From IMG/VR virus record IMGVR_UViG_3300031578_009156: a stretch of 64,000 bases of DNA, one strand, 5' to 3'. Below the pieces are notes generated by a model. That model did no database searches. It was not told the DNA's origin and worked only from the letters and a program-made list of their open reading frames with translations. The translations under genes and the position numbers were made by a program. This document shows positions 4,107-63,140 of this stretch, one piece after another (position 1 is the stretch's first letter; every line of letters starts with the position of its first letter). The stretch is from an uncultured virus (IMG/VR IMGVR_UViG_3300031578_009156). Its lineage: Duplodnaviria > Heunggongvirae > Uroviricota > Caudoviricetes.

Positions 4107-4120
4107 TGTAGGGGGAGGCA

Positions 4121-28512: not shown

Positions 28513-28566
28513 CACGGCGGGCCGCTAAGGGAAAACAGCGGGCACGAACGGGGGAGCAATAGGGCA

Positions 28567-38158: not shown

Positions 38159-39218
38159 GCAGCAAATCACCGAGGATGACGTGCAGGCCGTTGCGTGTGC
38201 TCTCCAGGAAAGCCTGATCACGACCGGCCCTCACGTCAAGGAGTTTGAGCGTGCCTTCGCTGAGAAGGTCCAGGCGGGGTGCGCAGTGGCAGTGAGCAGC
38301 GGCACAGCGGCCCTCCACACGGCGATGGCCGCCATAGGGGTCGGGCCAGGGGATGAGGTCATCGTTCCCGCCATGACGTTCGTAGGAACGGCCAACGCCG
38401 TCCGCTACGTGGGGGCTACGCCCGTCATCGTGGATGTGAACCCCGACACCCTGCTGATTGATCCCGCTTGCGTAGAGCGGGCAATCACCCGCAGGACAAG
38501 GGCTATCGTGGCCGTGGACTACGCGGGGCAGCCGTGTAACTACGCTGGACTGTGGGCACTCGCCCGTTCGCACGACCTCTACCTCGTAGCAGATGCGGCC
38601 CACTCTCTGGGCGCGGTCTATGGTGATGCGCCAGTCGGCTCCCTGGCTGATGTTACGTGCTTCAGTTTCCACCCCGTCAAGCACATCACGACGGGGGAGG
38701 GGGGCATGGTTACTACCGATAAGGCCATACTGGCTAATCTCGCCAGGTCCTTCCGCAGCCACGGTCTGGACGAGAACAGGGAGATGGTCTGGGAGGGCTA
38801 TAACTACCGCATCACCGATTTTCAGTGTTCCCTTGGCAGCAGCCAACTGGCGCGGCTCGATGAGATCATGGAGGCGCGGCGCGGCATTGCACGGGCATAC
38901 GACAAGGCATTTGCTGGTACTGCGGTGCGGCCGCTCGGCCTGGCTCCCAGAGCGCGACACTCCTATCACCTGTACGTGGTGCGCGTGCCAAACCGTGACA
39001 AGGTTATGGCACGATTACGTAGCAAGGGCATTGGCGCGCAGATTCACTACCGCCCCGTCCACATGCATCAGTTCTACAGGTTCCTGATGGGAACGGGCAC
39101 GGGCCTCTGCCCTGTAGCCGAGCAGGCTTACGAGGAGATTCTGTCCATCCCCGTGTACCCTGGTCTGTTCCTGGATGATCAGCTTTTCGTGGTAGATGAA
39201 CTCCTGGAGGCAGTCTGA
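38133..39218 (+). CDS. pseC: DegT-family sugar aminotransferase
   Basis: [36 protein letters not shown]. Confidence 0.88.
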
Positions 39219-39961
39219 TGAACGTGGTGGCAATCGTTGCGGTTCGGCTGAACAGTTCGCGGCTCCCTGGCAAGGCCTTGATGGACATTGCGGGCGAGCC
39301 GATGCTGGCGCGGGTGGTCCACAGGCTGGAGCGGGCGCGGACCCTGGACAGGGTGGTGGTAGCTACGGTGGGCTGTGACGAAAACCTGCCCATCGTGGAC
39401 CTGTGCCGTGAAGAGGGGTGGGACACCTATGTCGGTACGCCCGACACATACGAGGACGTTCTGCTGAGGTGCTACCGCGCGGCCGTGGCGCGCAAAGCGG
39501 GCGCATTCGTGCGGGTCACCGTTGACTGCCCCCTGATCGAGCCGACGGTGGTGGACCTGGTGGTGTCTGCTTTCTTAGCGGAGCGGCCAGACCTTGCCAG
39601 CAATACCATACACCGCACCTGGCCGCGCGGGCTGGACGTATCTGTCATTGCGATTGAGGCTCTGGCGGTAGCAAACCGTCTGGGCAAAGGACCGCATCAC
39701 AGGCACCACGTTACCGCCTATCTCTACGAGTACCCTGACAAGTTCAATCTTCTGGCGGTGACGCGGACGGGCATGGACGCAAGTGGGCACCGCTGGACGG
39801 TGGATGAGCAGGCCGACCTGGTGTTTGTGCGGGAGGTTTACAAGAGGCTGGGCGGGCGCAACGACTTCAGTTGGCTCGATGTGTTGGGCCTGATAGAGGA
39901 TAACCCCGAGTTGCAGCGGGTTAACGCGCACGTGATTCAAAAAGGAGCGAAGGACCTATGA
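39218..39961 (+). CDS. Cytidylyltransferase (SpsF/PseF-like)
   Basis: [29 protein letters not shown]. Confidence 0.85.
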
Positions 39962-40944
39962 GACCAGTTGTGATTCGCGCAGACGGGGCGAACGGAATTG
40001 GGTTGGGGCACACCCGCCGTTGTGTGGAGATCGGGCGAACGCTCAAGGAGCGCGGCGCGGACGTGCTGTTTGTGTCGGCGGCCAACCCCGTGGTAAATCC
40101 GATACTGGCAGAATTCGGGCGCCCGATGTCAGAGGTGAGGAGCGAAGGGGCCGCACTGGAATATCTTGCTGGCTCGTTCCCTGACTCCATAGTCCTACTG
40201 GACACTCCTTACCCATACTCAGTAGCAGAGATCGAGCGGCTGAAGGGTGCTGGTTGCTCGGTCTTCATGATGCAAAACGAGTGTCCTGGAATGCTTGCCA
40301 GCGATTACGCAATCTTCCCAGATGACCACCACACCGCACCGAGCACCGGATGGGGTGATACGTTCCCGTTGATGGGGCTCGACTACGTGATCATCCCACG
40401 GATCGCTGTGTGGACGGCATGGACGGCACTTCACAGTGAAGCACAGGACCGCGTCGCCGTAGTGGCCGGCGCTAGCGACCCCTGGCACATCTTGCCACAG
40501 ATGGCAAGGTTGTTCTACAAATTGGATGACTATGAGGTTGTGTTTCTGGAGGGACAGGACACCGACTATCACGAAGAGATGGTGGGCCTGTGCAAACCTG
40601 AGCGCATGGCCTCGGTGCCGTTCAATTATGTTGACCTGTTCTCTGCCAGAATGGTGGTCACCGTGTTCGGGTGCACGGCATACGAACTGATTTATGCGGT
40701 GCGGCCTTTCCTAGCACTGGGGCCAAACGAGAGGTACGCGCGTTATGCCAGGACCCTCTCCCAGCGAACCCACGCCCTGAATGTTCTCGGCTGGCCATGC
40801 ACCACGGATGACCTGGAAACAGCACTGTTAAGCCTCACGGCTTTTTACTGGGATATGACGGCAGCCCAACGAGGGCTGATTGACGGCGCAGGCGCTGAGC
40901 GCATTGCGGACCACATTCTACAGGAGGCTAGACGTGATAGTTGA
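39958..40944 (+). CDS. pseG: PseG/SpsG-like UDP-sugar hydrolase
   Basis: [30 protein letters not shown]. Confidence 0.75.
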
Positions 40945-41413
40945 CGGGTACGAGCAGTACGGCAGGTACTACGAGGACTTTAACATTGGTGATGTATTCT
41001 GTCATTGGCCCGGGCACACGGTCACCGAGGGGGAGCACTCCCTTTTCTGTGCTTTGACAAGAAACGACCACCCCGTGCACAGCGATCAGGTGTACGCCGC
41101 CAGCGCCCGCCACGGGCGCATTCTGGTAGTGGGCACTTTCGTGTTCTCCCTGGTCGTGGGCATGACCGTGGGGGACATCAGCGGGAAGGCGATTGCTAAC
41201 CTGGGGTACGAGAAAGTTACCCACGAAGCTCCTGTTTTCGTGGGTGATACTCTCTACGCTGAGACGGTCGTGGTGGACAAGCGACAGACCAGCAAGGCTG
41301 GCATTGTGACCGTGGAGACACGGGCAACGAAAACGAAGCGGATAGGTGAGCACCCCAGTGTTCTGGTTCTGACGCTGCGCCGCAAAATCTTAGTTCCGAG
41401 GAGGGAGCAATGA
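40934..41413 (+). CDS. MaoC-family dehydratase
   Basis: GRYYEDF, NDHPVHSD, PVFVGDTLYAE. Confidence 0.88.
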   Translation: MIVDGYEQYGRYYEDFNIGDVFCHWPGHTVTEGEHSLFCALTRNDHPVHSDQVYAASARHGRILVVGTFVFSLVVGMTVGDISGKAIANLGYEKVTHEAPVFVGDTLYAETVVVDKRQTSKAGIVTVETRATKTKRIGEHPSVLVLTLRRKILVPRREQ

Positions 41414-42294
41414 CACGGAGAGTTCCATACCCGATGAGAAGTCTACTGTTCGTGCCAGGCCACAACGAGCGGTATTTGCGCTCTGCAGCGGACTCTGGCG
41501 CGGACGTCCTCTTGCCCGACCTGGAGGACTCAGTTCCCCTGGCATGCAAGGCGCAGGCACGTGACACGGTGGCCCAGTGGATGCAGTCTTGCTGTGCTGG
41601 TCTGCATGTGTTCCCACGGGTGAATGGCGGTCCCGACGTGCTCCCAGATGTGCTGGCCCTGGCAAAATGTGGTGTGGACGGGTTCATGCTCCCTAAAGCC
41701 TACAGGGGCGAGAACGTCTTGCTGTTCGACAAGTTGCTCAAGATCGCGGAGGTGGAAAACGGGCTGGCTCCTGGCTCCCTCCAGATTATTCCCTTGATCG
41801 AGACCTGCTCGGCAGTCTTGCACGTGCAAGAGATTTGCGAGGCGTCTCCCCGCGTAATCGCCGTGGCTTTCGGGTGCGAGGACTTCGTGGCCGACCTCCA
41901 CGGGACGCACGACCTGGAGGGCAAGGTCTTGGAGGTCCCCCGTGCGCTCATTGCACTGGGTGCCCGGGCGGCCGGCGTGATCCCGATAGACACGGTGCAC
42001 GTCGAGGTCAACGACCTGGCCGACCTGGAGCGCAACGCCCGCTACGCCCGTGGCCTGGGCTTCGAGGGCATGTTGGCCCTGCACCCCAAAGAACTCCCTA
42101 CCATTCACGAGTGTTTCACGCCAGACGCCTGGGAGGTCGAGCGGGCGCGGGGAATGCTGGCCCTCGCTGCCGAAGCTGAGCGGGCGGGCAAGGGAGTGGC
42201 GATAATGGAGGGGCGGTTCATCGGGCCGCCGATGGTGCGGGCGGCAAGGCACACGCTCGAACTGGCAGAAGTCATAGAGAGGAGAGGCAAGTGA
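41410..42294 (+). CDS. CitE/HpcH acyl-CoA lyase family
   Basis: RSLLFVPG, DLEDSV, PLIET, FGCEDF. Confidence 0.88.
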   Translation: MTRRVPYPMRSLLFVPGHNERYLRSAADSGADVLLPDLEDSVPLACKAQARDTVAQWMQSCCAGLHVFPRVNGGPDVLPDVLALAKCGVDGFMLPKAYRGENVLLFDKLLKIAEVENGLAPGSLQIIPLIETCSAVLHVQEICEASPRVIAVAFGCEDFVADLHGTHDLEGKVLEVPRALIALGARAAGVIPIDTVHVEVNDLADLERNARYARGLGFEGMLALHPKELPTIHECFTPDAWEVERARGMLALAAEAERAGKGVAIMEGRFIGPPMVRAARHTLELAEVIERRGK

Positions 42295-42959
42295 AGAAAC
42301 TGGTGATCGTGGGAGGCATCGGCAACGGTGCTGTGGCGCTGTCCACGGTGGTGGACATCAATAATTCGGAGGACGGGTACAATACCTGGGAGGTGCTCGG
42401 CTTCCTGAATGATAGTGCGGACAGGGCCGAAGTGCATGGCTTCCCTTGGCTGGGACCGATAGAGAGCAGTTCTGTGCAAAGGCTGCGTGATCGCAAGGAC
42501 GTGTATTTCTTGTGGACCCTGTTTTCCACGCGGTTGCGCCAGGATATGGTGGTCAGGCTCCAGGGCCTGGGCATTGAGCGGGAGAAGTGGGCGACTCTCA
42601 TTCACCCTGCTGCCGTCGTGTCGCGCTTCGCGGAGATTGGGCGGGGCGTAATCATGCATGCGCAGTCGTCCGTTGGGCCGGCAGTCTCACTGGGCGACCA
42701 CGTGCAGATGTACAACCAGACCTACGTGGGCCACAACACCCGCGTGGGTAACTACTCTTTTTTGGCGAATGGTGCCCACATCAGCAGTTTCGTGACCTTG
42801 GAGGAGGGGGCATACCTGGGCATGTCGTGCGCCGTCCGTGAGTTCGTCAGGGTCGGCCAGTGGGCCACTGTTGGCATGGGGGCGGTCGTGCTGGAGAACG
42901 TCGAGCCACACACTACCGTGGTGGGGGTTCCAGCCAGGGCAATAGAGAGGAGAAGTTAG
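42291..42959 (+). CDS. NeuD/PglD-family acyltransferase
   Basis: GFLND, TLIHP, hexapeptide repeats, VVGVPAR. Confidence 0.85.
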   Translation: MKKLVIVGGIGNGAVALSTVVDINNSEDGYNTWEVLGFLNDSADRAEVHGFPWLGPIESSSVQRLRDRKDVYFLWTLFSTRLRQDMVVRLQGLGIEREKWATLIHPAAVVSRFAEIGRGVIMHAQSSVGPAVSLGDHVQMYNQTYVGHNTRVGNYSFLANGAHISSFVTLEEGAYLGMSCAVREFVRVGQWATVGMGAVVLENVEPHTTVVGVPARAIERRS

Positions 42960-43787
42960 ATGGCCGTTACGATCATCGCTGAAGTTGGATCGAACTGGGG
43001 CGGGAGCCTGGATCGTGCGCTCGATTACGTGGAGGCCGCGGCCATGGTTGGCGCGGACGCGGTTAAGTTCCAGACCATCCGCATAAACCTGTTGTATGCC
43101 CGAGGCTACGAGCCGCACTTTCAGATCCCAGAATTGCCCGATGACTGGCACTTCGAGTTGAAAGCCAGGGCGGACAAGCTCGGGATCGAGTTCGTGTCTA
43201 CCCCGTTCTACTTGGACGCTGTGGACCTCTTAGAGCGCGTGGGGGTTAAGCGGTACAAGATCGCTTCGGGCGACATCACCTTTCGCCCACTTCTGCAGAA
43301 GGTGGCAGAGACTGGAAAGCCACTCCTGTTGTCAACGGGTGCCTGTGACATGAACGACATACGAAAGGTAGTCAGCTTCCTCAAGGATTGCTATAGTTGG
43401 AACAAGGTGACCTTGCTCCATTGCGTGACCCGCTACCCCGCATCTGTGGACGAAATGGCCCTGTGGAGCATGCAGTATCTGCGCGACTGTTTTGGGTGCC
43501 CGGTCGGCCTCTCGGACCACTCCCTGAGCGCGGCGGTATCTATTGCAGCGGTTGGCATGGGGGCCTCGGTGATCGAGAAGCACATCACATTCGACCGTCG
43601 TACACCTGGCCCCGACCACCCGTTTGCTACGACCGTGGACGAGTTCGCGGACCTGGTTCGTGACATTCGTTCAGTGGAGGCGGCGTTGGGGGTTTATGAC
43701 AAAGCCCCCTCCCCCTCCGAGCAGGGAACTGCAGGAAGAATCAGGCGCAACCCTAACGACTGGCTACGTCCGGAGGTGCGAGAATGA
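42960..43787 (+). CDS. NeuB/PseI nonulosonic acid synthase (no C-terminal SAF domain)
   Basis: IIAEVGSN, ADAVKFQ, KIASGD, LSTG, LHCV..YP, GLSDHS, IEKH. Confidence 0.92.
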   Translation: MAVTIIAEVGSNWGGSLDRALDYVEAAAMVGADAVKFQTIRINLLYARGYEPHFQIPELPDDWHFELKARADKLGIEFVSTPFYLDAVDLLERVGVKRYKIASGDITFRPLLQKVAETGKPLLLSTGACDMNDIRKVVSFLKDCYSWNKVTLLHCVTRYPASVDEMALWSMQYLRDCFGCPVGLSDHSLSAAVSIAAVGMGASVIEKHITFDRRTPGPDHPFATTVDEFADLVRDIRSVEAALGVYDKAPSPSEQGTAGRIRRNPNDWLRPEVRE

Positions 43788-44419
43788 CACGACCACTAGA
43801 GCAATGGAAAGGCACGTTTGGCGATGAGTACACGGCGCGAAACTCCGCCGAGGTGTGGTTGACGGGGGAGAAACGAGCCTCCGCTGTAGCAGTGTGGGAG
43901 CGGATGCTCAGAGAGGTATGGCCTGGACTCAGCAGCATCATGGAGATTGGGGCAAACATCGGCCTAAATCTTGGGATATTGCGCGAACTGCTCCCCTATA
44001 CTCCCCTCTATGCGATTGAGCCAAATTACGTGGCCTGGATGACCCTGGTTGACCGCTATGCGGGATTGACTGCTTGGAATGAGGCAGTCGAAGAGTGGGA
44101 GCCGAAAGAAGGCACCTTTGACCTGGTGTTCACGTCTGGCGTGCTGATCCACATTCCGCCAGAAAACCTCCTGGCGGCCACAGACAAGATCGTCCGCGCG
44201 GCTGGCAGGTACGTGCTGTGCAAAGAGTACTTCGATGTGAAGCCGACCATGATCCCGTACCACGGCCAGGACAACCTGTTGTTCAAGCGCGATTTCGGTT
44301 CCTGGTACCTGGATCACTATCCCGAATTGCACTGCATAGATTACGGCTTCTGGTGGTCGCGCCTGGAGCCGTACTGTGACAATTCCACCTGGTGGTTGTT
44401 CGAGAAAGGAGCAAGATGA
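43784..44419 (+). CDS. Pseudaminic-acid-associated methyltransferase
   Basis: WKGTFGDEYTARN, EIGANIGLNL, GVLIHI, LFKRDF. Confidence 0.85.
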   Translation: MTRPLEQWKGTFGDEYTARNSAEVWLTGEKRASAVAVWERMLREVWPGLSSIMEIGANIGLNLGILRELLPYTPLYAIEPNYVAWMTLVDRYAGLTAWNEAVEEWEPKEGTFDLVFTSGVLIHIPPENLLAATDKIVRAAGRYVLCKEYFDVKPTMIPYHGQDNLLFKRDFGSWYLDHYPELHCIDYGFWWSRLEPYCDNSTWWLFEKGAR

Positions 44420-45531
44420 GGTACTGCAAGAAGTGTGTTCAACCCGATACACGTCCTGGCATTGTGTTCGATGACGAGGGCGTATGCATGGCGTGCCGCG
44501 TGGGCCACCAGGAAGTGGACTGGGATGCGCGCGAGGCGGAATTGCGGGACATTGCGAGCTGGGCCAGGGAACAGGGCGCGACGTGGGATTGCGCCATTGG
44601 CGTGTCGGGCGGTAAAGACAGCACCTTCCAGGCTCTGTACGCGCGCAACCGCTTGGGCCTGCGGGCATTGCTCGTCAATTGCACGCCAGACCCCATCACC
44701 GACGTCGGTGTGGCTAACAGGGAGAATCTCTACCACCTGGGGTTCGACATGATCCAGATCAGACCAAACCCCCTCGTCACGCGGGCCTTGGTCACCCGCG
44801 CATTTGAGGATTACGGCAACCTTGTCAAACCTACTGAGTACCCTCTTTATGCGGTGACATGGCAAGAGGCTCTTATGCGGCATGTTCCTTTGGTGATACA
44901 GGGGGAGAACCCCGCCGAGACCCTGGGTATTGGAGGCGGCCTGTCAACGGGTGGTGATGCTTCAGACATCCGCCACCACAGCACGATTGCGGGAGGTGCC
45001 AAAGCATGGGTGGGTGATGGCGTGACGATGAAGGACATGGCATTCTACGAGATCCCACCCGTGGAGGAGATTGAGCGCGCGGGAATCAGGTCCGTGTGGC
45101 TGGGCCACTACGCCAGAGAGTGGAGCAGAACGCACAACACCGAGTTCGCCGTCTCCCACGGCCTGCGCGGTCGCCCCATGCACAACCCTGCCCACGCGGG
45201 ACGGCTCAGCGAGCACGGCAGCGTTGACAGCGACTTTCAGATCGTAAACCAGATGCTCAAATACTACAAGTTTGGGTTCGGGTTTGTCACCGATGAGGTG
45301 TGTTACTCAATCCGCGAAGGGGCAATGACCCGTGAAGAGGCCATTGAGCTGGTACAGAAGTACGACGGGCGCTGTGACGCGGTGTACATCGAGCAGTTCT
45401 GTGATTACATCGGCTACACCGCCAGCCGATTTTGGAAAGTGGTAGACAGGTGGGTTAGTGAGAGCCTGTTCGAAAAGCAGGGCTACCGCTGGGTGCCCAA
45501 GTTTACCGTAGGGGAGGACTTTAATGAATGA
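44416..45531 (+). CDS. N-acetyl sugar amidotransferase (WbuX/PseA-like)
   Basis: CKKCVQPDTRP, GVSGGKDS, YYKFGFG, MTREEA. Confidence 0.88.
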   Translation: MRYCKKCVQPDTRPGIVFDDEGVCMACRVGHQEVDWDAREAELRDIASWAREQGATWDCAIGVSGGKDSTFQALYARNRLGLRALLVNCTPDPITDVGVANRENLYHLGFDMIQIRPNPLVTRALVTRAFEDYGNLVKPTEYPLYAVTWQEALMRHVPLVIQGENPAETLGIGGGLSTGGDASDIRHHSTIAGGAKAWVGDGVTMKDMAFYEIPPVEEIERAGIRSVWLGHYAREWSRTHNTEFAVSHGLRGRPMHNPAHAGRLSEHGSVDSDFQIVNQMLKYYKFGFGFVTDEVCYSIREGAMTREEAIELVQKYDGRCDAVYIEQFCDYIGYTASRFWKVVDRWVSESLFEKQGYRWVPKFTVGEDFNE

Positions 45532-46516
45532 GGATAGCATTCGACCTGATAGCCTGCGGCCCGACCTGGCTGCAGCAGCCCAGCGAGATAGGGAGTGGCT
45601 GTTGGCCCGTGAGGCTGAGTTCGTCTACGTGGACTGCCCCGTGTGCGATACGTCTAGCAACACGAACCCCTGGCTCATCACTGATGAATTCCAATATCGC
45701 AGGTGCTCGGACTGCGGAACGCTCTTTATCAGCCCTCGGCCAACCCAAGAACTTCTGAATGCCTACTATGCGCGGTCGGAGATTGCTCAATGCTGGTGCG
45801 AGGAAATCTACCCCGCAGCGGAAGATACCAGGGCCGCCGAGATACACCGACCGCGCGTTTATCGCATAATCAGTCTGGCGCGCTCCCTGGGGGTGCCATG
45901 TGACATCCTCGTGGACATCGGCGCGGGGTACGGAACGTTCTGCGCCGAGGCTGCAAGGCAAGGATTCCGCTGTATCGCCGTGGAACCTTCACCATCTCTG
46001 GCTGGTGCGTGTGCCAGTAGAGGGGTGGACACACGGGCCTGCTCCTTGGACAAAGCAGACCTCCCGCAGGATTCCGCCTCAGTGGTCACAGCATTTGAGG
46101 TGATCGAGCACGTGGCTGACCCCAGGTGGTTTCTAAGGACCTGTTACAGGACGCTTGCCCCTGGCGGCCTGCTCGCCCTCACTTGCCCCAACGTTGACGG
46201 GTTCGACGTGCAGGTGCTGGGTGCGGCCTCCAGTACCATAGGCCACGAACACTTGACCTACTTTACCCCTGAGTCACTACCCACCCTGCTTGAGGCTGTT
46301 GGGTTTGAGATCGTAGAGGTGGCGACACCTGGCAAACTCGACCTGGAACTCGTCCACAAGGCGGTGGTGGCTGGCGCGATAGTGACTCCATGGATCAGGT
46401 ACCTGGTCGTGGACAGGTGGGACAAGATTGACCGAGAGGCGGTTCAACAATGCCTGGCGGACAACCTTCTATCATCCCATCTGTGGGTGGTGGCGAGGAA
46501 GCCGAAGGGGGACTGA
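45524..46516 (+). CDS. Zn-ribbon + SAM methyltransferase
   Basis: CPVC..CSDC..SPRP; DIGAGYG; FEVIEH. Confidence 0.85.
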   Translation: MNEDSIRPDSLRPDLAAAAQRDREWLLAREAEFVYVDCPVCDTSSNTNPWLITDEFQYRRCSDCGTLFISPRPTQELLNAYYARSEIAQCWCEEIYPAAEDTRAAEIHRPRVYRIISLARSLGVPCDILVDIGAGYGTFCAEAARQGFRCIAVEPSPSLAGACASRGVDTRACSLDKADLPQDSASVVTAFEVIEHVADPRWFLRTCYRTLAPGGLLALTCPNVDGFDVQVLGAASSTIGHEHLTYFTPESLPTLLEAVGFEIVEVATPGKLDLELVHKAVVAGAIVTPWIRYLVVDRWDKIDREAVQQCLADNLLSSHLWVVARKPKGD

Positions 46517-47328
46517 TGGACTCTAACTACTGGACTAACTGCTGGAGCGATGTTACTTTCGTTGAAGAGTACGCACGCAAGCAGGATGGTGGCTACCACA
46601 GACACCGACTCTCCGTAATTAGCCATCTCATCCCAAGGGATCTTTTGATGCGTGGCAAGAGAGTTTTTGACTTCGGGTGTGGAGATGCGGTCATGTTTCC
46701 CACATTCCTGGAGGCTGGTGCTTACATTGAGGGCACCGACTTCTCTCCCGAAATGATCGAGCAGGCTCGCGTTCGTCTGGCGGGAAAGTGCGATGACTCG
46801 GCCTCTATTGCACGAGTGGGGACCGTGTACGATCTGCGGCAGATTACAGACAAGTCGTTCGATGCTGTGCTGTGTCTGAATGTGCTGGCCTACCTCACAG
46901 ATGATGAGGAGGCCACTTTTTACAGAGAGGCGCGGCGCGTACTGAAACGTGGCGGCTATCTCATCGTGACACACTCAAACGAGTTGTTCGACATGTTTAC
47001 TCTCAACTGGCACACCGTAAAGTTCATTGAGAAGTATCTGAGCAACATTGCCGTAGGAGAGATGCTGGCACATGCTGGCTCTCCAACGGCACCACTCTAT
47101 AACATCCGCGAGAATCCCCTGTCGTATCCCTGGAAGTTGAGCCGGTGGGGATTCGACACCCTCCAGACGGAGTACATCAATTGGCACTGTGCACCGCCGT
47201 ACCTCTTGGGAGAGGACAAGGAGTTTTCCGATACCCTGGCTGTTCCCACAGACGAAAGGTGGAAGCTGATGTTTACGTGTAGCCAGTTCGGCGTGCTGGC
47301 GAGGAAGTCGCCAGAGGAGAAACGATGA
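46516..47328 (+). CDS. SAM-dependent methyltransferase
   Basis: FDFGCGD, DFSPEMI, RVLKRGG. Confidence 0.85.
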   Translation: MDSNYWTNCWSDVTFVEEYARKQDGGYHRHRLSVISHLIPRDLLMRGKRVFDFGCGDAVMFPTFLEAGAYIEGTDFSPEMIEQARVRLAGKCDDSASIARVGTVYDLRQITDKSFDAVLCLNVLAYLTDDEEATFYREARRVLKRGGYLIVTHSNELFDMFTLNWHTVKFIEKYLSNIAVGEMLAHAGSPTAPLYNIRENPLSYPWKLSRWGFDTLQTEYINWHCAPPYLLGEDKEFSDTLAVPTDERWKLMFTCSQFGVLARKSPEEKR

Positions 47329-47504
47329 ACCTGGGGGAAGTTCTGCAAAGCATTGGCGTGGTGGCCGGTTTCCTTGGCCTGATTTGTGTTTGCTCAGATC
47401 CAAAAGGACCAGTCCCCATCTGGGCGCTGGTGGGGCTGTTGCTGGTGGCGCTGGCGTTCATCCTGCGTAGTGATCAGCCTTCCCCCTGGAGGTGGCGGCG
47501 ATGA
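47325..47504 (+). CDS. 59-aa two-TM membrane protein (not in ORF track)
   Basis: MNLGEVLQSIGVVAGFLGLI..WALVGLLLVALAFILR; ATGA-coupled on both sides. Confidence 0.6.
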   Translation: MNLGEVLQSIGVVAGFLGLICVCSDPKGPVPIWALVGLLLVALAFILRSDQPSPWRWRR

Positions 47505-58311: not shown

Positions 58312-58748
58312 TGAAGGGCGTCGGATTGGACGGCAAGTCCCATCTGGAGGCTGCCTTTTCTACTCTCTGGCACCAGATCGCTCCCGACTCCCCAGAGCCA
58401 GAGCACGACGTGACGTTCTATCCTGGCCGTGACTGGCGGGCAGACTTCATCTGGAAGCCCCAACTCGTGCTGGTCGAATTGGAGGGGCAGGTCTGGGGGG
58501 CGCAGGTGCATTGTCAGGCATGCGGGGCGCTGGTGAAAAAGAGGAGCAAGGGCGGCAAGTGGTACGCGGTGCGCGAGGCGGGCGGGCGGCACGTCAGGGG
58601 CGACGGGTTTCAGAACGACGTGGACAAGTATAACGCGGCAGCCGACCTCGGCTACAGGCTTTTCAGGGTGACGGCCAAGATGCTCGAGGAGGACCCCTAC
58701 AGCATCATAATGACGGTGAAGGAGGCGGTGGAGGATGGGCAGAAGTGA
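58311..58748 (+). CDS. PD-(D/E)XK endonuclease (DUF559/Vsr-like)
   Basis: WRADF..VLVELEG..H..D..KYNAA..GYRLFRVT. Confidence 0.8.
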   Translation: MKGVGLDGKSHLEAAFSTLWHQIAPDSPEPEHDVTFYPGRDWRADFIWKPQLVLVELEGQVWGAQVHCQACGALVKKRSKGGKWYAVREAGGRHVRGDGFQNDVDKYNAAADLGYRLFRVTAKMLEEDPYSIIMTVKEAVEDGQK

Positions 58749-59933
58749 CTGCTCTCCCCTCTAAAGAGGGGAGCTTCTAGGGCTTACACCCAAGCTCGCC
58801 AGTCCGCGAGCCAAAATGTTCAGAGACGCATTTAAGTCTCTGTCCATTTCCAAACTGCAAAAAGGACAAGAGTGGACACGAACGGACAATGCTTTTTCGA
58901 CAATCTGACCACAGCGAGAACACATCTTGGTGGTGTTGCGCGGATCGACCAGCACACACGAACGACCGGCCCATGCTGCCTTGTACGTCGTGTACTGTAC
59001 CAGTTGGCCCCACGCCGCATCCGAGATGCTCTTGTTCATGCTGCGCCAGTTGCCATCTTGCATGTCCTGGATATTCAAGTCCTCGAAGACCACGATCTGA
59101 AATTCATCTACCAGGCGTCTGCTGAGTTTGTGCGCAAAGTCGGCACGCCGGTTCGCAATGCGCTGGTGGATGTGTTGAATTACCCGCTTGCATCGGGTAT
59201 GCTCAGGTGTTCCCTTTTCGCACTTGGAGAGCTTGCGCTGTGCCTTGGCAAGCGCCTTTTCGTCCTTGCGGAAAAAACGCGGGTTGGCGATCATCTCGCC
59301 GGTGGACAGGGTCGCGAATTTTTCAAGTCCCAGGTCGATGCCAATGACATTGGGAACTGGGGGCAAAGGAATGGACTCAACCTCACAGGAAAAGCAGGCA
59401 TACCAATTACCCAAGGCGTCGCGCCTGACAGTGAGCGTCTTGATTTTACCCTCAATAGGGCGATGCAATCTGATCTTGACGTTGCCGATCTTGGAAAGAT
59501 AGAGTCGTTCATCACTGGTGAGCTTGAATCCGCTCTGTGGATAGGTGAAAGAATCATAGCGGTCCGCTCCGCGAAACCGAGGATAGCCGGGGTTCTCTCC
59601 GCTTTCTCTCATGCGCCTGAAAAAGTGCTGGAGTGCCAGATCGACACGGGTTTGCGCATTTTGCAGACACTGCGAGAAAGCGTTCGAGAGTTCAGGCTTT
59701 TCCTGTTTCCATCTGGTGAGAAGTTTGTTTGTGTCGAACAGAGACAACGACATCTGTTGTTCTTGCCATGCACCACGCCGCACCTCAAGAGTCTTATTGT
59801 AGACCCACCGACAAGCGTCGAGAGATACCTGCATGGCTTTGCGTTGGGCTCGGGTTGGATAGAGTCTGAACCGGAACGTCTTCATGGCTCTATTGTATCA
59901 CGTATTAAGGCAGGTGTCAAGTGCTTAATATCA
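58745..59933 (-). mobile_element. IS605-group tnpB-only element with resolvable ends
   Basis: Right-end hairpin CTCCCCTCT-tt-AGAGGGGAG..TCAC; left-end hairpin TATTAAG..CTTAATA after TTAC; removal restores the flanking gene overlap. Confidence 0.85.
58761..59885 (-). CDS. tnpB: TnpB RNA-guided nuclease
   Basis: FRFRLYPT, GIDLG, VFEDL, CSRC..CPFC, DRDLNASLNI. Confidence 0.95.
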   Translation of the reverse strand: MKTFRFRLYPTRAQRKAMQVSLDACRWVYNKTLEVRRGAWQEQQMSLSLFDTNKLLTRWKQEKPELSNAFSQCLQNAQTRVDLALQHFFRRMRESGENPGYPRFRGADRYDSFTYPQSGFKLTSDERLYLSKIGNVKIRLHRPIEGKIKTLTVRRDALGNWYACFSCEVESIPLPPVPNVIGIDLGLEKFATLSTGEMIANPRFFRKDEKALAKAQRKLSKCEKGTPEHTRCKRVIQHIHQRIANRRADFAHKLSRRLVDEFQIVVFEDLNIQDMQDGNWRSMNKSISDAAWGQLVQYTTYKAAWAGRSCVLVDPRNTTKMCSRCGQIVEKALSVRVHSCPFCSLEMDRDLNASLNILARGLASLGVSPRSSPL

Positions 59934-60478
59934 GTAAACCGACGACATTAGTGGCGTGTTCCCAGTGCGGGCGGGACTGGCCCCCCCAGCACCTGGTCGC
60001 GGGCCTGTGCGAGGACTGTGCGGCGAGGCGGATCGGGGCGCAAGCCCTCGTGGCCGCCTCCATCGAGGCGAGGGGGTATAGGGAGGGATGGGATCCCCAG
60101 GAGTTTGCAGCGCGTCAGTGTTGCAAACTGATGGAGGAGTTGGCGGAACTCCTGAAAGCCGTCTGCGACAAAAGCCCGACCAGTTACCACGTGTGGGCGT
60201 TTTTTCTGTCAGAGGGGGGCAGGCTGGCGCGGGGGGCATTCGATGGCCCGCGTGAATTGTGGTGGAAGGACGACCAGGTCCAGGTTGATGCACCACAGGC
60301 GATGAAGGAACTGGCAGACCTGCAGGTGGTCGTGTTCTGTCTGGCGCAGGTCTTGGTGGAACTAGCGGGGCAGCCGTTCGACATCGTGCGGGCGGCAATC
60401 GAGAAGGCCGAGGCTGGCGTGGGGCGGGGGGTGCGGGGGCAAATCGAGGGGGAAACAGACCAAACGCTTGACAAGTAG
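59921..60478 (+). CDS. Zn-finger + MazG-like protein (native start separated by the IS)
   Basis: CSQC..CEDC; KLMEELAEL; KELADLQVV. Confidence 0.65.
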   Translation: MLNISKPTTLVACSQCGRDWPPQHLVAGLCEDCAARRIGAQALVAASIEARGYREGWDPQEFAARQCCKLMEELAELLKAVCDKSPTSYHVWAFFLSEGGRLARGAFDGPRELWWKDDQVQVDAPQAMKELADLQVVVFCLAQVLVELAGQPFDIVRAAIEKAEAGVGRGVRGQIEGETDQTLDK

Positions 60479-60496
60479 GGACCTATGATGTATAAT
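60468..60496 (+). promoter_or_regulatory. Consensus promoter
   Basis: TTGACA-17-TATAAT. Confidence 0.85.
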
Positions 60497-60528: not shown

Positions 60529-61158
60529 GTGGTAGCAAGAGGAAAGCAGCAAGCGCGGGGCTTGCCATTGTGGCCCGAGGAGTGGGCGAACCTGGAGCAG
60601 TTGGCAGCGGAGTTCGACACGTGTCCCCCATCAGGCCCAAACGCCGGTCACCCATCGTGGCGTTCTCTGGTCAAGGAGATCGCGCGGGGTAACATCAGCC
60701 TGGTGCGGGAGAGCGAGGGGCAGGCAGTCCATAAACTGTACGACTCCAAGGTTTGCCCGTTCTGCGGCGAGACGACCACGGTGGTGGCGGGCGGGATTCC
60801 TCACCTGCGGGCGCACGTCCGCAAGGGGGAGGCTGAGGAGGTCTTGGTCGCGGGTGAGCGGCAGTTCCGCAAGCCTGGGGAGGTCTACCCCAACGAGGAC
60901 GAGGTAGAAGTCGTGATGCGGGCGGGCGAGTACATCCCAGCCCCCACGACCGTCTGCCCGTTCTGTGACCGCGAGGTAACGGCCTCTGGTGGCAGCGTAT
61001 TGCACATGCGGGCACACGTCCGCAAGGGCGAGGCCGAGGAGATCGAGGTTGATGGCGGGCGCACGTTCCGCCGACCAGGGGAAACTTATGCCCCGAACAG
61101 GGAGCGGTTCGTGATCGTCATCAGGCGGGCTGGGGAGAGCGAGGGGCCAGCAGAATAG
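60529..61158 (+). CDS. Protein with two tandem C2H2-like zinc fingers
   Basis: 2x VCPFC-X12-HxRAHVRKGEAEE..FR.PGE.Y. Confidence 0.7.
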   Translation: MVARGKQQARGLPLWPEEWANLEQLAAEFDTCPPSGPNAGHPSWRSLVKEIARGNISLVRESEGQAVHKLYDSKVCPFCGETTTVVAGGIPHLRAHVRKGEAEEVLVAGERQFRKPGEVYPNEDEVEVVMRAGEYIPAPTTVCPFCDREVTASGGSVLHMRAHVRKGEAEEIEVDGGRTFRRPGETYAPNRERFVIVIRRAGESEGPAE

Positions 61159-61166
61159 GACGTACT

Positions 61167-61284
61167 GGGGGTGCTTGGCTTCGACGGGGGGCGGTGTGGT
61201 TGGTAGGTGAAAAGGCCCATTGAACGACACCGAAGGCCACGGATTGACAAACTCCGGACATGGGTTCAATTCCCATCACCTCCA
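61167..61284 (+). ncRNA. 118-nt mini-tmRNA (tRNA-like domain only)
   Basis: 5' GGGGGUGCUUGGCUUCGACGGGG; 3' CUCCGGAC-AUGGG-UUCAAUU-CCCAU-CACCUCCA; G3-U pair; about 60 nt between the ends. Confidence 0.8.
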
Positions 61285-61287
61285 CTA

Positions 61288-61496
61288 GCATGGCGCGTCA
61301 GGTGGACGTAGTCTGGGGTTCTGCATCAGGCAGCCATGCGAACGCACGGGGCAGCGAGGGCGGTCCGACGGATGGGCGTGGGCCGGGGCTACTGTTGGCC
61401 GAGGTGGTACTGGATACGCGGGCGCTGCCCGTAGTGGAGGGTACAATCGGCGTCGGCATCGGCTAGGCCGAATGCGCAACCTCGTTGTCCCGTGTG
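61288..61496 (+). ncRNA. Putative structured RNA(s) downstream of the mini-tmRNA
   Basis: Helices 61288-94/61333-39 and 61345-59/61480-94 enclosing several hairpins. Confidence 0.55.
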
Positions 61497-61498
61497 AC

Positions 61499-61678
61499 TT
61501 GACAAATCGCCAGACTATGGTATACTATACATTGTCACACGCATAGAGGCGGGCGTTTTGCTTTAGTAGCCGTCTCACAACTTCAAAGGTAAGTTGGGCA
61601 AAGCGCCCTCATTATGGTGGACTCGCGTCCCGCTGTGCGTGTGACAACGACGGCATACCATGATGGGGGCGCTTTGCT
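61499..61678 (+). promoter_or_regulatory. tnpB promoter and switch-like leader
   Basis: TTGACA-16-TATACT; alternative long helices covering the RBS region. Confidence 0.7.
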
Positions 61679-62878
61679 ATGAAGGTTCTCAGAGCCTACA
61701 AGACAGAGCTTGATCCAACGAACAAGCAGTGCACATGGTTCATGCGATGTGCGGGCGCTGCCAGGTTCGTGTATAACTGGGCGCTGGCCGACCGCAAGGA
61801 GCGATGGGAACAGGGCCAGCAAAACACGAACTTGTATGAGCAAAAACGGCGATTCAATGCCCTGAAACGCGAGCAGTGGCCGTGGCTTTATGATGTGCCT
61901 TACACCCTGCAAGATGCTGCCTTTGTCAACTTAGATACTGCTTACCAGAACTTCTTTCGACGTGTGAAGCAAGGCCAGGAAAAAGTCGGCTTCCCCAAGT
62001 TCAAATCCCGTAAGCGCGGTATTGGCTCTTTCATTCTGCGCGGAAGCATCCACGTAGAGGAAGGTCGAATCAAGTTACCACGTATCGGATGGGTGAGGCT
62101 GAAGGAACATGAGTATCTACCCTCCGAGCAACAGGTTAAACTCTTGTCCGTGACTATCTCGGAGCGAGCAGGCAGGTGGTACGCTTCTGTACAGGTGGAA
62201 GAAGATGGGCCAGAACCAGAAACAGGCACGGATATTATCGGTGTGGACCTGGGCATATCCCACCTGGCAGTATGCTCAGATGGTACAGTATTTGAGAATC
62301 CAAAAGCACTTATACAGGCAGAACGTAAACTCGCACGGCTACAGCGTGAACTAGACCGCAGAACGCAAGGCGGCCAGAACTGGCATAAGACGAAAGCCAA
62401 GATCGCGCAGTGTCACGCCAGGATTGCCAATGTCAGGCAGCATGCGCTTCACCAGGTCAGTCATTACATCACGGCGAAAGTCAAGCCTGAGACAGTAGTG
62501 ATTGAGGATTTGAACGTGAATGGTATGCTCCAGAATCATCACCTGGCAAGGGCAATTTCGGATGTGAGTTTTGGCGAACTGAGGAGACAGATCGAGTACA
62601 AGGCCAAGTGGCACGGCGTCAAGGTTGTGATAGCCGATAGATTCTGGCCGTCAAGCAAGGCTTGCTCGCGGTGTGGATGTGTCAAAAGCAACTTGACCTT
62701 GGCCGACAGAACCTATACCTGTGATGACTGCGGGTTGGTTATAGATCGTGACTTGAACGCGGCGTTAAATCTTGCCGCGCTAGGGAAGGCGAAAACATCG
62801 CCGGATTGCCTGGGGAGTTGCGGTGCAGGAAGGCCGCACTGTGAACCAGGAACCGAGCAGCCGCTTATCGCGGCATAG
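61679..62878 (+). CDS. tnpB: TnpB (IS607/IS1341-type) RNA-guided nuclease
   Basis: RAYKTELDPT, GVDLG, VIEDL, CSRC..CDDC, DRDLNAALNL. Confidence 0.95.
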   Translation: MKVLRAYKTELDPTNKQCTWFMRCAGAARFVYNWALADRKERWEQGQQNTNLYEQKRRFNALKREQWPWLYDVPYTLQDAAFVNLDTAYQNFFRRVKQGQEKVGFPKFKSRKRGIGSFILRGSIHVEEGRIKLPRIGWVRLKEHEYLPSEQQVKLLSVTISERAGRWYASVQVEEDGPEPETGTDIIGVDLGISHLAVCSDGTVFENPKALIQAERKLARLQRELDRRTQGGQNWHKTKAKIAQCHARIANVRQHALHQVSHYITAKVKPETVVIEDLNVNGMLQNHHLARAISDVSFGELRRQIEYKAKWHGVKVVIADRFWPSSKACSRCGCVKSNLTLADRTYTCDDCGLVIDRDLNAALNLAALGKAKTSPDCLGSCGAGRPHCEPGTEQPLIAA

Positions 62879-62906
62879 GTCTCGGATGGCACATTATAAT
62901 TCTAGT

Positions 62907-63109
62907 GTGCACCCCACGGGCGTGTGGGGGGTTGGTTAGAGGTACGGTCACACAATTGCGGTACGATGGTGCACCCCACGGGCGTGTGGGGGGTTGGGTT
63001 GACCTGATCCCGACCGACGCGGACAAGTGCGTGCACCCCACGGGCGTGTGGGGGGTTGGTCGCCCGCGCAGGCTTCCCCAGTGCACCCCACAGGCGCGTG
63101 GGTGTTTGG
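62907..63109 (+). CRISPR. CRISPR mini-array, 4 repeats / 3 spacers
   Basis: 29-bp GTGCACCCCACGGGCGTGTGGGGGGTTGG at 62907, 62969 and 63031; degenerate copy at 63081; spacers 33, 33 and 21 bp. Confidence 0.9.
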
Positions 63110-63140
63110 ACCTGGCCCCCGTGCTTACTTCACTGAGAAG

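What the first reader, a model, noticed from the sequence alone, without database searches (positions are those of the whole stretch)
61167..61284. Mini-tmRNA: complete tRNA-like domain with no mRNA-like domain
Seen: both tmRNA termini are present. The acceptor stem is GGGGGUG/CACCUCC with the G3-U alanine identity pair and discriminator A. There is a D-loop without a D stem ending UUCGAC, helix CGGGG/CUCCG, a GAC linker, and T-arm AUGGG-UUCAAUU-CCCAU. Only ~60 nt lie between the ends (one helix CGGUGUGGUU/AACGACACCG), with no recognisable resume site or tag frame; CCA is not encoded (CUA). Known: bacterial tmRNAs are about three times longer and need the tag frame; TLD-only forms are known from some mitochondria. 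Inference: a phage RNA that is alanylated and binds SmpB/EF-Tu. It could be a decoy that blocks trans-translation or tmRNA/tRNA-cleaving defences, or it could rescue ribosomes without tagging.
Basis: partly seen in the sequence, partly recalled or inferred. Interest (0 to 1): 0.88.

Follow-up and report, generated by a model that had tools for sequence, protein, structure and literature searches.

The report
Phage tag-less mini-tmRNA, conserved arm
An uncultured soil phage carries a real 118-base gene for a cut-down ribosome-rescue RNA (tmRNA) that keeps the alanine-accepting tRNA-like end but has no tag-coding part; one such phage RNA (mycobacteriophage DS6A) is already published, so the kind is known, but this version has an extra conserved arm whose role is unknown.

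Summary
Window 61167-61287(+) matches Rfam tmRNA (RF00023) at 65.9 bits (cut-off 47). Both ends align, and 62 nt replace 314 model positions. ARAGORN finds no tmRNA or tag.

It is a selected gene, not a fresh deletion. A related phage (L043, flanks 88-92% identical) keeps a 122-nt form at the same locus. Seven base pairs differ between the two and none is broken.

The kind is already published: mycobacteriophage DS6A carries a 'TLD only' tmRNA, and a similar molecule inhibits tmRNA, perhaps by titrating SmpB (PMC4131195, PMC11915505, passages read). Earlier notes of this scan report the same kind on other DNA.

New here:
- One TLD pattern found 64 distinct mini-tmRNAs in viral, metagenome and genome collections.
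- The window belongs to a five-member subgroup with a covarying inner arm.
- The arm's apical loop carries AAAGGCCCA. This motif recurs in 18 of 64 minis, against 0.7 expected.

Most likely mechanism (untested): the RNA is charged with alanine, binds SmpB and competes with host tmRNA. Tag-less rescue and a relic resume site remain open.

The parts
61167..61284 (+). Mini-tmRNA gene (TLD-only, 118 nt up to discriminator A). The trailer CUA at 61285-61287 is not CCA.
   Evidence: RF00023 at 65.9 bits against cut-off 47, model 1-374 with 62 nt in place of 314 positions. Sequence read.
61167..61173 (+). Acceptor stem 5' strand GGGGGUG. It pairs with 61277-61283 (CACCUCC) and includes G3.U. A61284 is the discriminator.
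   Evidence: In the 5-sequence alignment, 3 of 7 pairs change on both sides and 100% of cells are paired.
61174..61185 (+). D-loop analogue CUUGGCUUCGAC with no D stem. Its GAC starts P2 opposite GGA at 61256-61258.
   Evidence: cmscan alignment. Across 64 minis the first three P2 positions read G.A in 63, A.G in 53 and C-G in 61.
61185..61189 (+). P2 5' strand CGGGG, pairing with CUCCG at 61252-61256.
   Evidence: helix 2 is 96% paired and 3 of 5 pairs change on both sides.
61195..61200 (+). Helix A 5' strand UGUGGU, pairing with GCCACG at 61236-61241 (plus U61201.G61235).
   Evidence: helix 3 is 96.7% paired and 4 of 6 pairs change on both sides among 5 sequences.
61202..61205 (+). Internal loop: 5' side GGUA (AGUA in L063 and L138) opposite GAA at 61232-61234. 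Nearly invariant. It resembles a loop-E / bulged-G motif; that motif is recalled, not tested.
   Evidence: Invariant columns G37 T38 A39 ... G66 A67 A68 of alignment A2. The motif assignment is inference.
61206..61231 (+). Hairpin Y: GGUG (61206-61209) pairs with CACC (61228-61231) and closes an 18-nt apical loop, 61210-61227.
   Evidence: helix 4 is 95% paired and never varies, so covariation says nothing for or against it.
61211..61219 (+). Apical-loop motif AAAGGCCCA (an A-rich run followed by GCC).
   Evidence: Found with at most 1 mismatch in 18 of 64 distinct minis, against 0.69 expected from shuffles, in at least 9 unrelated interior clusters. MAFFT aligns it as the only conserved interior block.
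61260..61276 (+). T arm AUGGG-UUCAAUU-CCCAU.
   Evidence: helix 5 is 100% paired and 3 of 5 pairs change on both sides.
60468..60496 (+). Sigma-70-type promoter (TTGACA, 17 nt, TATAAT; 12 of 12). It probably drives the 209-aa gene and the mini-tmRNA as one transcript.
   Evidence: Both hexamers are kept in relative L043 while the spacer differs. Transcription itself is not shown.
60529..61158 (+). Upstream gene, 209 aa, with repeated Cys-pair (zinc-ribbon/zinc-finger-like) units. Its stop codon lies 8 nt before the RNA gene.
   Evidence: weak DUF7501; no PHROG; Atlas leads below 0.9 only. No link to the RNA is shown.
61288..61339 (+). 52-nt stem element (GCAUGGC...GCCAUGC) at the place where relative L043 has an odd tRNA. 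Possibly a decayed tRNA.
   Evidence: fold -23.7 kcal/mol, z -1.65; L043 tRNA at 2107-2182; weak alignment. Inference.
61495..63112 (+). Inserted TnpB element absent from relative L043: own promoter at 61499-61526, tnpB at 61679-62878, and four 29-nt repeats at 62907-63114. This is context, not part of the RNA.

Best explanation
Window 61167-61284(+) is a working gene for a 'TLD-only' (tag-less) tmRNA carried by a temperate siphovirus-like phage.

Shown:
- It has a complete tmRNA tRNA-like domain.
- It lacks a tag frame and the pseudoknots.
- Its structure is kept by compensatory changes in relatives.
- It belongs to a large family of such RNAs.

Inferred from what is established for tmRNA:
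- It is probably transcribed with the upstream 209-aa gene from the promoter at 60468-60496. RNase P and 3' trimming then cut it out, and the host enzyme adds CCA.
- G3.U70 and A73 make it a substrate of alanyl-tRNA synthetase.
- The D-/T-loop elbow and the G.A/A.G/C-G start of P2 form the SmpB site.

Because it cannot template a tag, its most likely effect is competition. It ties up SmpB (and EF-Tu and stalled ribosomes), and so lowers tagging and degradation by the host's own tmRNA while the phage is active. A similar TLD molecule is reported to do this in E. coli.

The extra arm comprises helix A, a near-invariant internal loop, hairpin Y and an 18-nt loop with AAAGGCCCA. It is under selection of its own and points to a second contact. 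That contact could be with the ribosome or with SmpB, or the arm could be a relic of the resume-codon region. Which of these holds is unknown.
For: Identity:
- RF00023 at 65.9 bits against cut-off 47, both ends matched.
- No tag or tmRNA call by ARAGORN.

Selection:
- Relative L043 has flanks 88-92% identical and a 122-nt homologue at the same locus.
- The two differ at 21 of 124 aligned columns. Seven pairs are affected: 4 change on both sides, 3 on one side, 0 are broken.
- In the five-member subgroup (window, L043, L026, L063, L138) 97.8% of cells are paired and 13 of 27 pairs change on both sides. Slid controls give 42-51%.

Family:
- One TLD pattern gave 12 + 3 viral loci, 54 metagenome loci and 9 genome loci.
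- That is 77 instances and 64 distinct sequences, 85-137 nt long.
- At positions the pattern left free, 543 of 576 cells pair. Shuffles give a mean of 280 and a maximum of 308.
- All 12 loci score over the Rfam cut-off.

Context:
- Subgroup relatives lie at the head of phage tRNA arrays: 13 tRNAs in L057 and 12 in L138.
- The window has phage tail, integrase and replication genes.

Precedent:
- DS6A is listed as 'TLD only', and a similar molecule 'strongly inhibits tmRNA, perhaps by titrating SmpB' (PMC4131195, passages read, citing Mao 2009, which I did not see).
- PMC11915505 (passage read) says it was shown to inhibit endogenous tmRNA in E. coli.
- I located the DS6A RNA at 28478-28560, 43.2 bits.

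The host keeps its own tmRNA where this could be checked: 5 of 5 MAGs with a mini also have a full-length tmRNA.
Against: - Nothing here shows transcription, processing, charging or SmpB binding.
- The metatranscriptome run X7 has contigs on both sides (60733-61059 and 61307-61445) but none over the RNA. That proves nothing either way.
- Titrating SmpB should need only the TLD. DS6A manages with 83 nt and other minis with 85 nt. The conserved 60-nt arm and loop motif are therefore unexplained by this mechanism and hint at another or an added function.
- The host and its SmpB are unknown.
- The benefit to a phage of blocking trans-translation is assumed.
- One low-depth DNA contig in run X3 joins 61154 to 61344, skipping the gene. 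Its depth is 6.2 against about 117, and only 20 letters lie on the shorter side, so this is weak and may come from another strain.
- The inhibition experiment was done with a different molecule in E. coli, and I read of it only second hand.
Confidence: 0.5

Rival explanations
1. Tag-less ribosome rescue. The alanyl-mini-tmRNA enters stalled ribosomes with SmpB and EF-Tu and takes over the nascent chain. With no frame to resume on, it hands the complex to a stop-codon-independent release route (an ArfB-type factor, or drop-off plus peptidyl-tRNA hydrolase). This frees ribosomes for phage translation without marking the products for degradation.
For: - The anatomy is the same as in the best explanation, and all determinants for charging are kept in 64 of 64 minis. 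G3.U was, however, required by the search pattern.
- CDS-less tmRNAs of organelles are read this way, because a targeted SmpB co-occurs with them (PMC11915505, passage read).
- The gene sits with phage tRNA arrays, that is, with genes that boost translation.
- The conserved arm could help docking on the ribosome.
Against: - No release factor, ArfB, Pth, SmpB, AlaRS or CCA-adding enzyme was found among the 79 window ORFs scanned with Pfam. The window is not the whole phage.
- According to PMC4131195, the published TLD molecule inhibited tmRNA 'whether or not chargeable', which fits sequestration better.
- There is no experimental support.
Confidence: 0.25
2. A complete but miniature tmRNA. The apical loop is a working mRNA-like domain, with an A-rich leader, resume codon GCC at 61215-61217, then CAU and UGA. 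The ribosome would add Ala-Ala-His and terminate normally, giving rescue with a non-degron tag.
For: - The conserved motif is an A-run followed by GCC. This resembles the Rfam consensus before the resume codon, AAAAAAUAAuUGCaAAC, and the host-type tmRNAs, CCAAAGUGCCAAUAAC.
- In the window, in L043 and in the unrelated L071, GCC is followed by one codon and then UGA.
- Natural 2-aa tags are reported (PMC11915505, passage read).
Against: - There is no conserved frame. Of 20 motif-bearing minis, the GCC frame has a stop before the T arm in 11, against 9 and 5 in the other two frames. The 'tags' are unrelated (AH, AR, ARRENPR, ALVRHRKLP ...). Subgroup member L063 has no stop at all.
- The UGA that follows the motif is conserved as sequence but at varying phase.
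- ARAGORN finds no tag.
- The codon sits in an 18-nt hairpin loop only about 27 nt from P2.
Confidence: 0.08
3. A tRNA-like decoy or handle for something other than trans-translation. Examples: bait for a host nuclease that cuts tRNA or tmRNA, a processing signal (RNase P site) for the neighbouring mRNA, or a platform bound by a phage protein through the conserved arm.
For: - The arm and loop motif are conserved beyond what SmpB binding needs.
- Other minis sit among self-cleaving ribozymes: L010 lies among four Hammerhead_II and L012 next to a Pistol.
- A sister subgroup lies in small chromosomal cassettes with an RHH-like protein and an HNH nuclease in Chloroflexota MAGs.
Against: - No protein neighbour is shared across the family. 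The largest neighbour cluster covers 8 loci of one subgroup only.
- No defence gene was tied to it.
- The full set of tmRNA-specific TLD features (G.A/A.G start of P2, UUCGAC, G3.U) is kept. A mere processing signal would not need them.
Confidence: 0.12
4. A decaying remnant of a full-length phage tmRNA, or an ssrA fragment picked up at an attachment site, with no present function.
For: - Deletion derivatives do exist. L082 in a Pseudescherichia MAG is a 102-nt form. Its ends looked to me like an enterobacterial tmRNA with the middle deleted; that comparison is from recall and was not run.
- The window phage has an integrase at 23440-24327.
- The neighbouring tRNA seen in L043 seems to have decayed in the window.
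Against: - Between the window and L043 all 7 changed pairs stay paired, 4 of them by double changes.
- The same architecture holds in five diverged sequences.
- Both ends are present, whereas an attP core holds only the 3' part.
- The integrase lies 37 kb away.
- The promoter is conserved.
Confidence: 0.05

Closest known systems
'TLD only' (CDS-less) tmRNA of Mycobacterium phage DS6A (tmRNA Website tmID 11587; Hudson, Lau & Williams 2014, PMC4131195; PMC11915505)
   Same: - Phage-borne, with the complete tRNA-like domain and both ends contiguous.
- No tag frame and no pseudoknots.
- G3.U and discriminator A are present.
- CCA is not encoded; both end ...CUCCACUA.
- The Rfam tmRNA model matches end to end with the middle skipped.
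   Different: - DS6A is 83 nt with a short interior and scores 43.2 bits, below Rfam's cut-off. The window RNA is 118 nt and scores 65.9 bits.
- The window RNA has a covarying arm (helix A, internal loop, hairpin Y) and the AAAGGCCCA loop motif.
- There is no detectable sequence kinship outside the TLD.
- The phage and, probably, the host phylum differ.
Canonical one-piece bacterial tmRNA (Rfam RF00023), e.g. the 421-427-nt tmRNAs of the Chloroflexota MAGs fetched here
   Same: - The acceptor stem, D-loop analogue, P2 start and T arm align position for position.
- The 5' 20 nt of relative L043 equal those of one Anaerolineae-type tmRNA, L085.
   Different: - 314 model positions are missing: PK1-PK4, the tag frame and helix 5.
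- There is no conserved reading frame.
CDS-less tmRNAs of organelles: jakobid mitochondria, and the ~65-bp forms of Mallomonadaceae plastids (PMC11915505, passage read)
   Same: They have a TLD without a tag frame, and they are thought still to act with SmpB.
   Different: - They are the only tmRNA of their compartment. Here the RNA is an extra, mobile copy next to a host that (where checked in MAGs) keeps a full tmRNA.
- The organelle forms are shorter and lack the arm.
Engineered TLD-only tmRNA fragments that inhibit tmRNA in E. coli (Mao et al. 2009, RNA Biol 6:355; known to me only through PMC4131195 and PMC11915505)
   Same: This is the working model for the mechanism: a TLD that titrates SmpB.
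   Different: They are laboratory constructs in E. coli. The natural RNA has an added conserved arm, and nothing is known of its partners.
Full-length phage tmRNAs (mycobacteriophage Bxz1 group, Bacillus phage G: PMC4131195; two-piece tmRNA of phage Melnitz: PMC9004378)
   Same: They are phage-encoded ssrA genes, often found with phage tRNAs.
   Different: Those keep a tag frame and are found by ARAGORN. This one is not, which is why such genes go unannotated.

Membership tests
tmRNA (Rfam RF00023) | Score at or above the family's gathering cut-off, with both termini matched | tested here: met
   65.9 bits against 47; model positions 1-374; E 1.9e-23.
tmRNA (Rfam RF00023) | tRNA-like domain: 7-bp acceptor stem with G3.U70, discriminator A, D-loop analogue ...GGNUUCGAC, T arm | tested here: met
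   Pairs are kept with compensatory changes.
tmRNA (Rfam RF00023) | mRNA-like domain: a resume codon and a tag reading frame ending in a stop codon | tested here: not met
   ARAGORN reports no tmRNA or tag. No conserved frame follows the conserved GCC: a stop in 11 of 20 sequences, against 9 and 5 in the other frames.
tmRNA (Rfam RF00023) | Pseudoknots PK1-PK4 and the long helix 2 | tested here: not met
   Only 62 nt lie between the TLD halves. They form one nested arm.
TLD-only / CDS-less tmRNA (DS6A type) | Complete TLD with contiguous ends, little more than a capped P2, and no tag CDS | tested here: met
   DS6A was located and compared.
TLD-only / CDS-less tmRNA (DS6A type) | Carried by a phage or mobile element in addition to the host's own tmRNA | tested here: inconclusive
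   The window has phage tail, integrase and replication genes. The host genome is not held. In 5 of 5 MAGs that carry a mini, a full-length tmRNA is also present.
TLD-only / CDS-less tmRNA (DS6A type) | Binds SmpB and/or inhibits trans-translation | not testable with these tools
   Known only from the literature, for a similar molecule (PMC4131195, PMC11915505).
tRNA-Ala | Cloverleaf with D stem and anticodon arm | tested here: not met
   ARAGORN finds no tRNA in the window. The best Rfam family is tmRNA, not tRNA.
ssrA-derived attachment site (attP core) | Only the 3' part of ssrA, next to the integrase gene | tested here: not met
   Both the 5' and 3' halves are present. The integrase at 23440-24327 lies 37 kb away.

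The most novel reading that the evidence does not exclude
The conserved arm is a second working module rather than a spacer. This would make these RNAs a distinct class of trans-translation effector, not simple SmpB sponges.

The apical loop (an A-run followed by GCC, AAAGGCCCA) would be a miniaturised resume site, or a ribosome- or SmpB-tail-docking element, derived from the resume region of tmRNA. It is shared by phage minis and by small chromosomal cassettes in Chloroflexota. In this phage it could even be read as GCC-CAU-UGA, giving rescue with a 2-residue non-degron tag.
Probability: 0.2. Interest if true: 0.75.

Novelty: new variant of a known kind. Interest (0 to 1): 0.45.

Why it matters
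Trans-translation is the main bacterial system for freeing stalled ribosomes, and it is a drug target. Natural RNAs that plug into it without tagging would be ready-made inhibitors or by-passes.

Only one phage example is in print. ARAGORN-based surveys miss these genes, so phage genomes are under-annotated for them. Showing that they form a large, selected family suggests that phages and other mobile elements tamper with ribosome rescue routinely. It also matters that some carry a conserved extra arm and loop motif, and that a sister group sits in bacterial chromosomes beside a normal tmRNA.

The arm offers a concrete handle. Mutating the loop asks whether the RNA does more than soak up SmpB.

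Tried and rejected
Searches that led nowhere
- DNA search of the 1.4-kb locus against 50,697 phage records: no match. The 151-nt query found only T-arm-sized pieces.
- The window's DnaB is at most 34% identical to isolate phages, so there is no cultured relative.
- The upstream 209-aa protein has no relatives in viral contigs. PHROGs gave nothing. Atlas leads are all below 0.9. I drew no functional link to the RNA.
- A motif-centred viral scan only re-found L005 and L014.
- A subgroup-specific pattern was unspecific. It gave 117 loci, of which 2 passed my flank filter and 1 (L138) was a true member.
- Earlier-findings look-ups by sequence and by place returned nothing.

Expression
- RNA run X7 holds contigs of the phage beside the gene but none over it. 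All runs are contigs, so there is no evidence either way.

Tests of ideas that failed
- A shared protein partner for the family (SmpB, Pth/ArfB, RtcB): none was found in a neighbour clustering of 76 loci and 680 ORFs. None was found among the 79 window ORFs scanned with Pfam.
- The chromosomal minis as a core gene of their class: among 151 genomes searched, only the seed genome had one over the cut-off, under stricter filters.
- The single-sequence MFE fold is uninformative (z -0.48).
- I looked by eye for pseudoknot alternatives for the arm and for pairing of the loop motif with the 5' junction. Neither was consistent across the five relatives, so I dropped them.
- Resemblance of parts of the arm to the sarcin-ricin loop is recalled only and was not pursued.

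Literature
- Searches for 'mini-tmRNA', 'TLD-only', 'tmRNA-like', 'truncated tmRNA', 'minimal tmRNA' and for six 'phage tmRNA' phrasings found no description of a phage TLD-only family beyond DS6A.
- Mao et al. 2009 is not in the library, so I did not read it.

Full report
**What is there.**
- Window 61167-61284(+) reads, in order: acceptor 5' strand GGGGGUG, a D-loop analogue ending UUCGAC, P2 (CGGGG/CUCCG), a 62-nt interior, GGAC, the T arm AUGGG-UUCAAUU-CCCAU, the acceptor 3' strand CACCUCC and discriminator A. CUA follows instead of CCA.
- Rfam's tmRNA model (RF00023) matches it end to end at 65.9 bits (cut-off 47, E 1.9e-23). Sixty-two nt stand in for 314 model positions. It is the only family above threshold in the 64 kb.
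- ARAGORN finds no tRNA or tmRNA in the window.

**Setting.**
- The window is phage DNA with nearly all genes on one strand.
- It carries tail genes (a tape-measure-like protein, Dit, a Gp37-like protein, an M23 peptidase), a ParM-like actin, FtsK, DnaN, DnaB, several DNA methylases, a tyrosine integrase and an HTH regulator.
- No cultured phage is close, and no whole genome is held for it.
- The RNA gene starts 8 nt after the stop of a 209-aa Cys-rich protein gene. That gene has a perfect sigma-70-type promoter at 60468-60496. Both hexamers are kept in a relative.
- No terminator-like site follows on the + strand.
- Downstream lies a TnpB element with its own promoter.

**Is it a fresh deletion or a kept gene?**
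- Locus L061 is the same DNA as the window (100% over 4057 nt).
- L043 is a related phage whose flanks are 88-92% identical.
- L043 has a 122-nt homologue at the same place. It lacks both TnpB insertions that flank the locus in the window (58747-59932 and about 61495-63112).
- The two RNAs differ at 21 of 124 aligned columns. Eleven differences fall in paired columns and touch 7 pairs. Four pairs changed on both sides, 3 on one side, and none is broken.
It argues for selection on the fold.

**The family.**
- I searched with one exact TLD pattern in which acceptor pairs 5-6, T-stem pairs 1-2, all of P2 and the interior were left free.
- It found 12 and 3 loci in viral contigs, 54 in metagenome contigs and 9 in genome contigs.
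- With the window this makes 77 instances and 64 distinct sequences, 85-137 nt long with a median of 107.5.
- All 12 loci, and 2 of the 3, score over Rfam's cut-off. L014 scores 43.0.
- At the free positions 543 of 576 cells form standard pairs. Shuffles give a mean of 280 and a maximum of 308. Each position shows 4-9 pair types.
- CCA is encoded in only 14 of 64.
- Several minis lie in phage tRNA arrays: L004, L005 and L014, and L057 and L138.

**The window's subgroup and its arm.**
- Five distinct sequences share the interior: window, L043, L026 (identical to L057), L063 and L138. L138 came from a further viral scan.
- All five exceed the Rfam cut-off, at 58.1-72.7 bits.
- The nested model is P2, then helix A (61195-61200 with 61236-61241), then an almost invariant internal loop (GGUA or AGUA opposite GAA), then hairpin Y (GGUG/CACC), then an 18-nt loop.
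- On this model 97.8% of cells are paired and 13 of 27 pairs change on both sides. Helix A has 4 of 6 such pairs. Slid controls give 42-51%.
- With five sequences this is indicative, not a statistical proof.
- The internal loop resembles a loop-E / bulged-G motif. That is my recollection of the motif, not a test.

**A recurrent loop motif.**
- The apical loop begins AAAAGGCCCA.
- AAAGGCCCA occurs with at most 1 mismatch in 18 of 64 distinct minis (0.69 expected from shuffles), and with at most 2 mismatches in 30 of 64 (6.5 expected).
- The 18 fall in at least 9 interior clusters that share little else. MAFFT aligns the motif as the only conserved interior block.
- It has the form 'A-run then GCC'. 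This recalls the Rfam consensus just before the resume codon, AAAAAAUAAuUGCaAAC, and the CCAAAGUGCCAAUAAC of four Chloroflexota tmRNAs fetched here.
- No reading frame is conserved. Among 20 motif-bearing minis the GCC frame has a stop before the T arm in 11, against 9 and 5 in the other two frames. The peptides are unrelated. Subgroup member L063 has no stop.
- In the window itself the frame would read GCC-CAU-UGA.
- I read the motif as RNA-level conservation, possibly a relic of the resume region. A working mini-frame is unlikely but not excluded.

**Not only phages.**
- Four of the nine genome hits are Chloroflexota/Anaerolineae MAGs that carry a sister subgroup (…GAGAGGGAAAAGGCCC…).
- Their context is chromosomal: UvrA, a histidine kinase and a DNA glycosylase lie nearby.
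- They sit inside a small cassette: a 121-165-aa protein with a weak RHH hit, a small ORF, the RNA, and then an HNH nuclease or a 266-aa unknown.
- All five MAGs tested also have a normal 392-427-nt tmRNA.
- In 151 genomes of that class only the seed genome had a mini over the cut-off, under stricter filters. The cassette is therefore sporadic, as expected of a mobile element.
- This, the 59% G+C and the L043 TLD 5' end being identical over 20 nt to one of these tmRNAs hint weakly at a Chloroflexota host.

**What is known.**
- Hudson, Lau and Williams (PMC4131195; Table 2 and text passages read) list 'Mycobacterium phage DS6A (TLD only)'. They state that a similar molecule, chargeable or not, strongly inhibits tmRNA, perhaps by titrating SmpB, citing Mao et al. 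2009. That paper is not in the library and I did not see it.
- The 2025 database paper (PMC11915505, passage read) repeats this. It adds ~65-bp CDS-less plastid forms and natural 2-aa tags.
- I located the DS6A RNA at 28478-28560, 83 nt and 43.2 bits, below Rfam's cut-off.
- A survey of phage tmRNAs that used ARAGORN found them in 2.3% of phage genomes (PMC9004378, passages read). ARAGORN misses the present type.
- Searches for other names of such RNAs found nothing further.
- Earlier notes of this scan report mini-tmRNAs of 78-143 nt on other DNA with the same nearest relative. I reached DS6A and the family independently before reading them. They are not independent evidence.

**Mechanism.**
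- Shown: the anatomy, the conservation and the family.
- Inferred from established tmRNA biology:
  - processing by RNase P and CCA addition;
  - charging by AlaRS through G3.U70 and A73;
  - SmpB binding at the elbow and the start of P2;
  - delivery by EF-Tu.
- Without a tag frame the simplest outcome is competition with host tmRNA for SmpB and stalled ribosomes (about 0.5).
- Tag-less rescue is the main rival (about 0.25).
- The conserved arm fits neither model fully and is the most interesting open point.
- No SmpB, AlaRS, CCA-adding enzyme, Pth or ArfB was seen among the 79 window ORFs scanned.

**Expression.**
- Six coded soil-metagenome DNA runs hold the locus.
- One metatranscriptome run has low-depth contigs at 60733-61059 and 61307-61445 but none over the RNA. 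Contigs cannot show absence.
- One weak low-depth DNA joint, 61154 to 61344, skips the gene and remains unexplained.

**Verdict.** This is a real, selected, phage-borne TLD-only tmRNA. It is a known kind with one published phage example, here in a longer variant with a conserved arm and loop motif. Function is untested.

Noticed in passing
window 62907-63114: Four direct copies of a ~29-nt palindromic repeat with start spacing 62, 62 and 50 nt, that is spacer-like gaps of about 33, 33 and 21 nt. They lie directly after the 3' end of tnpB (61679-62878) and a sub-threshold Rfam 'Transposase-2 RNA' hit at 62843-62911 (30.1 bits, cut-off 42.7). It looks like a CRISPR-like mini-array attached to a TnpB. 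The whole block is absent from relative L043, and DNA runs show joints and loose ends inside it.
   Followed up: partly
window 25041-26354(+), 58761-59885(-), 61679-62878(+): There are three TnpB (IS605 OrfB / Cas12f-like TNB) genes in one phage window. The two that flank the mini-tmRNA locus are missing from the related phage L043, so they are recent insertions.
   Followed up: partly
L043 2107-2182: Directly after the mini-tmRNA, the relative has a tRNA that ARAGORN calls tRNA-??? with a four-base anticodon (tgat) in an 8-nt loop. Rfam's tRNA model does not report it at E <= 0.001. The window has a 52-nt stem element (61288-61339) at that place, perhaps its decayed remnant.
   Followed up: partly
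window about 37000-47400: The phage carries a sugar-pathway block that looks like nonulosonic-acid synthesis. It includes a Polysacc_synt_2 dehydratase, a DegT aminotransferase, a cytidylyltransferase, NeuB, a hexapeptide acyltransferase, MaoC and HpcH enzymes, and several methyltransferases.
   Followed up: no
L075, L078, L081, L083 (Chloroflexota MAG contigs), mini at about 4001-4125 or 2561-2682: A sister subgroup of mini-tmRNAs sits in chromosomal context inside a small cassette: a weak RHH-like protein, a small ORF, the RNA, then an HNH nuclease or a 266-aa unknown. The same genomes hold a normal tmRNA. Only 1 of 151 genomes of the class (the seed) had such an RNA.
   Followed up: partly
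L082 4001-4102 (Pseudescherichia MAG): A 102-nt tmRNA-like sequence. Its ends looked to me like an enterobacterial tmRNA with the middle deleted. That comparison is from recall and was not run.
   Followed up: no
L010 517-2359 and L012 2735-2796: Other mini-tmRNAs lie among self-cleaving ribozymes: four Hammerhead_II around the one in L010, and a Pistol ribozyme 200 nt before the one in L012.
   Followed up: no
window 61154-61344: One low-depth contig of DNA run X3 joins 61154 to 61344, skipping the mini-tmRNA. Its depth is 6.2 against about 117, and only 20 letters lie on the shorter side. It could be a variant without the gene or a foreign contig.
   Followed up: no
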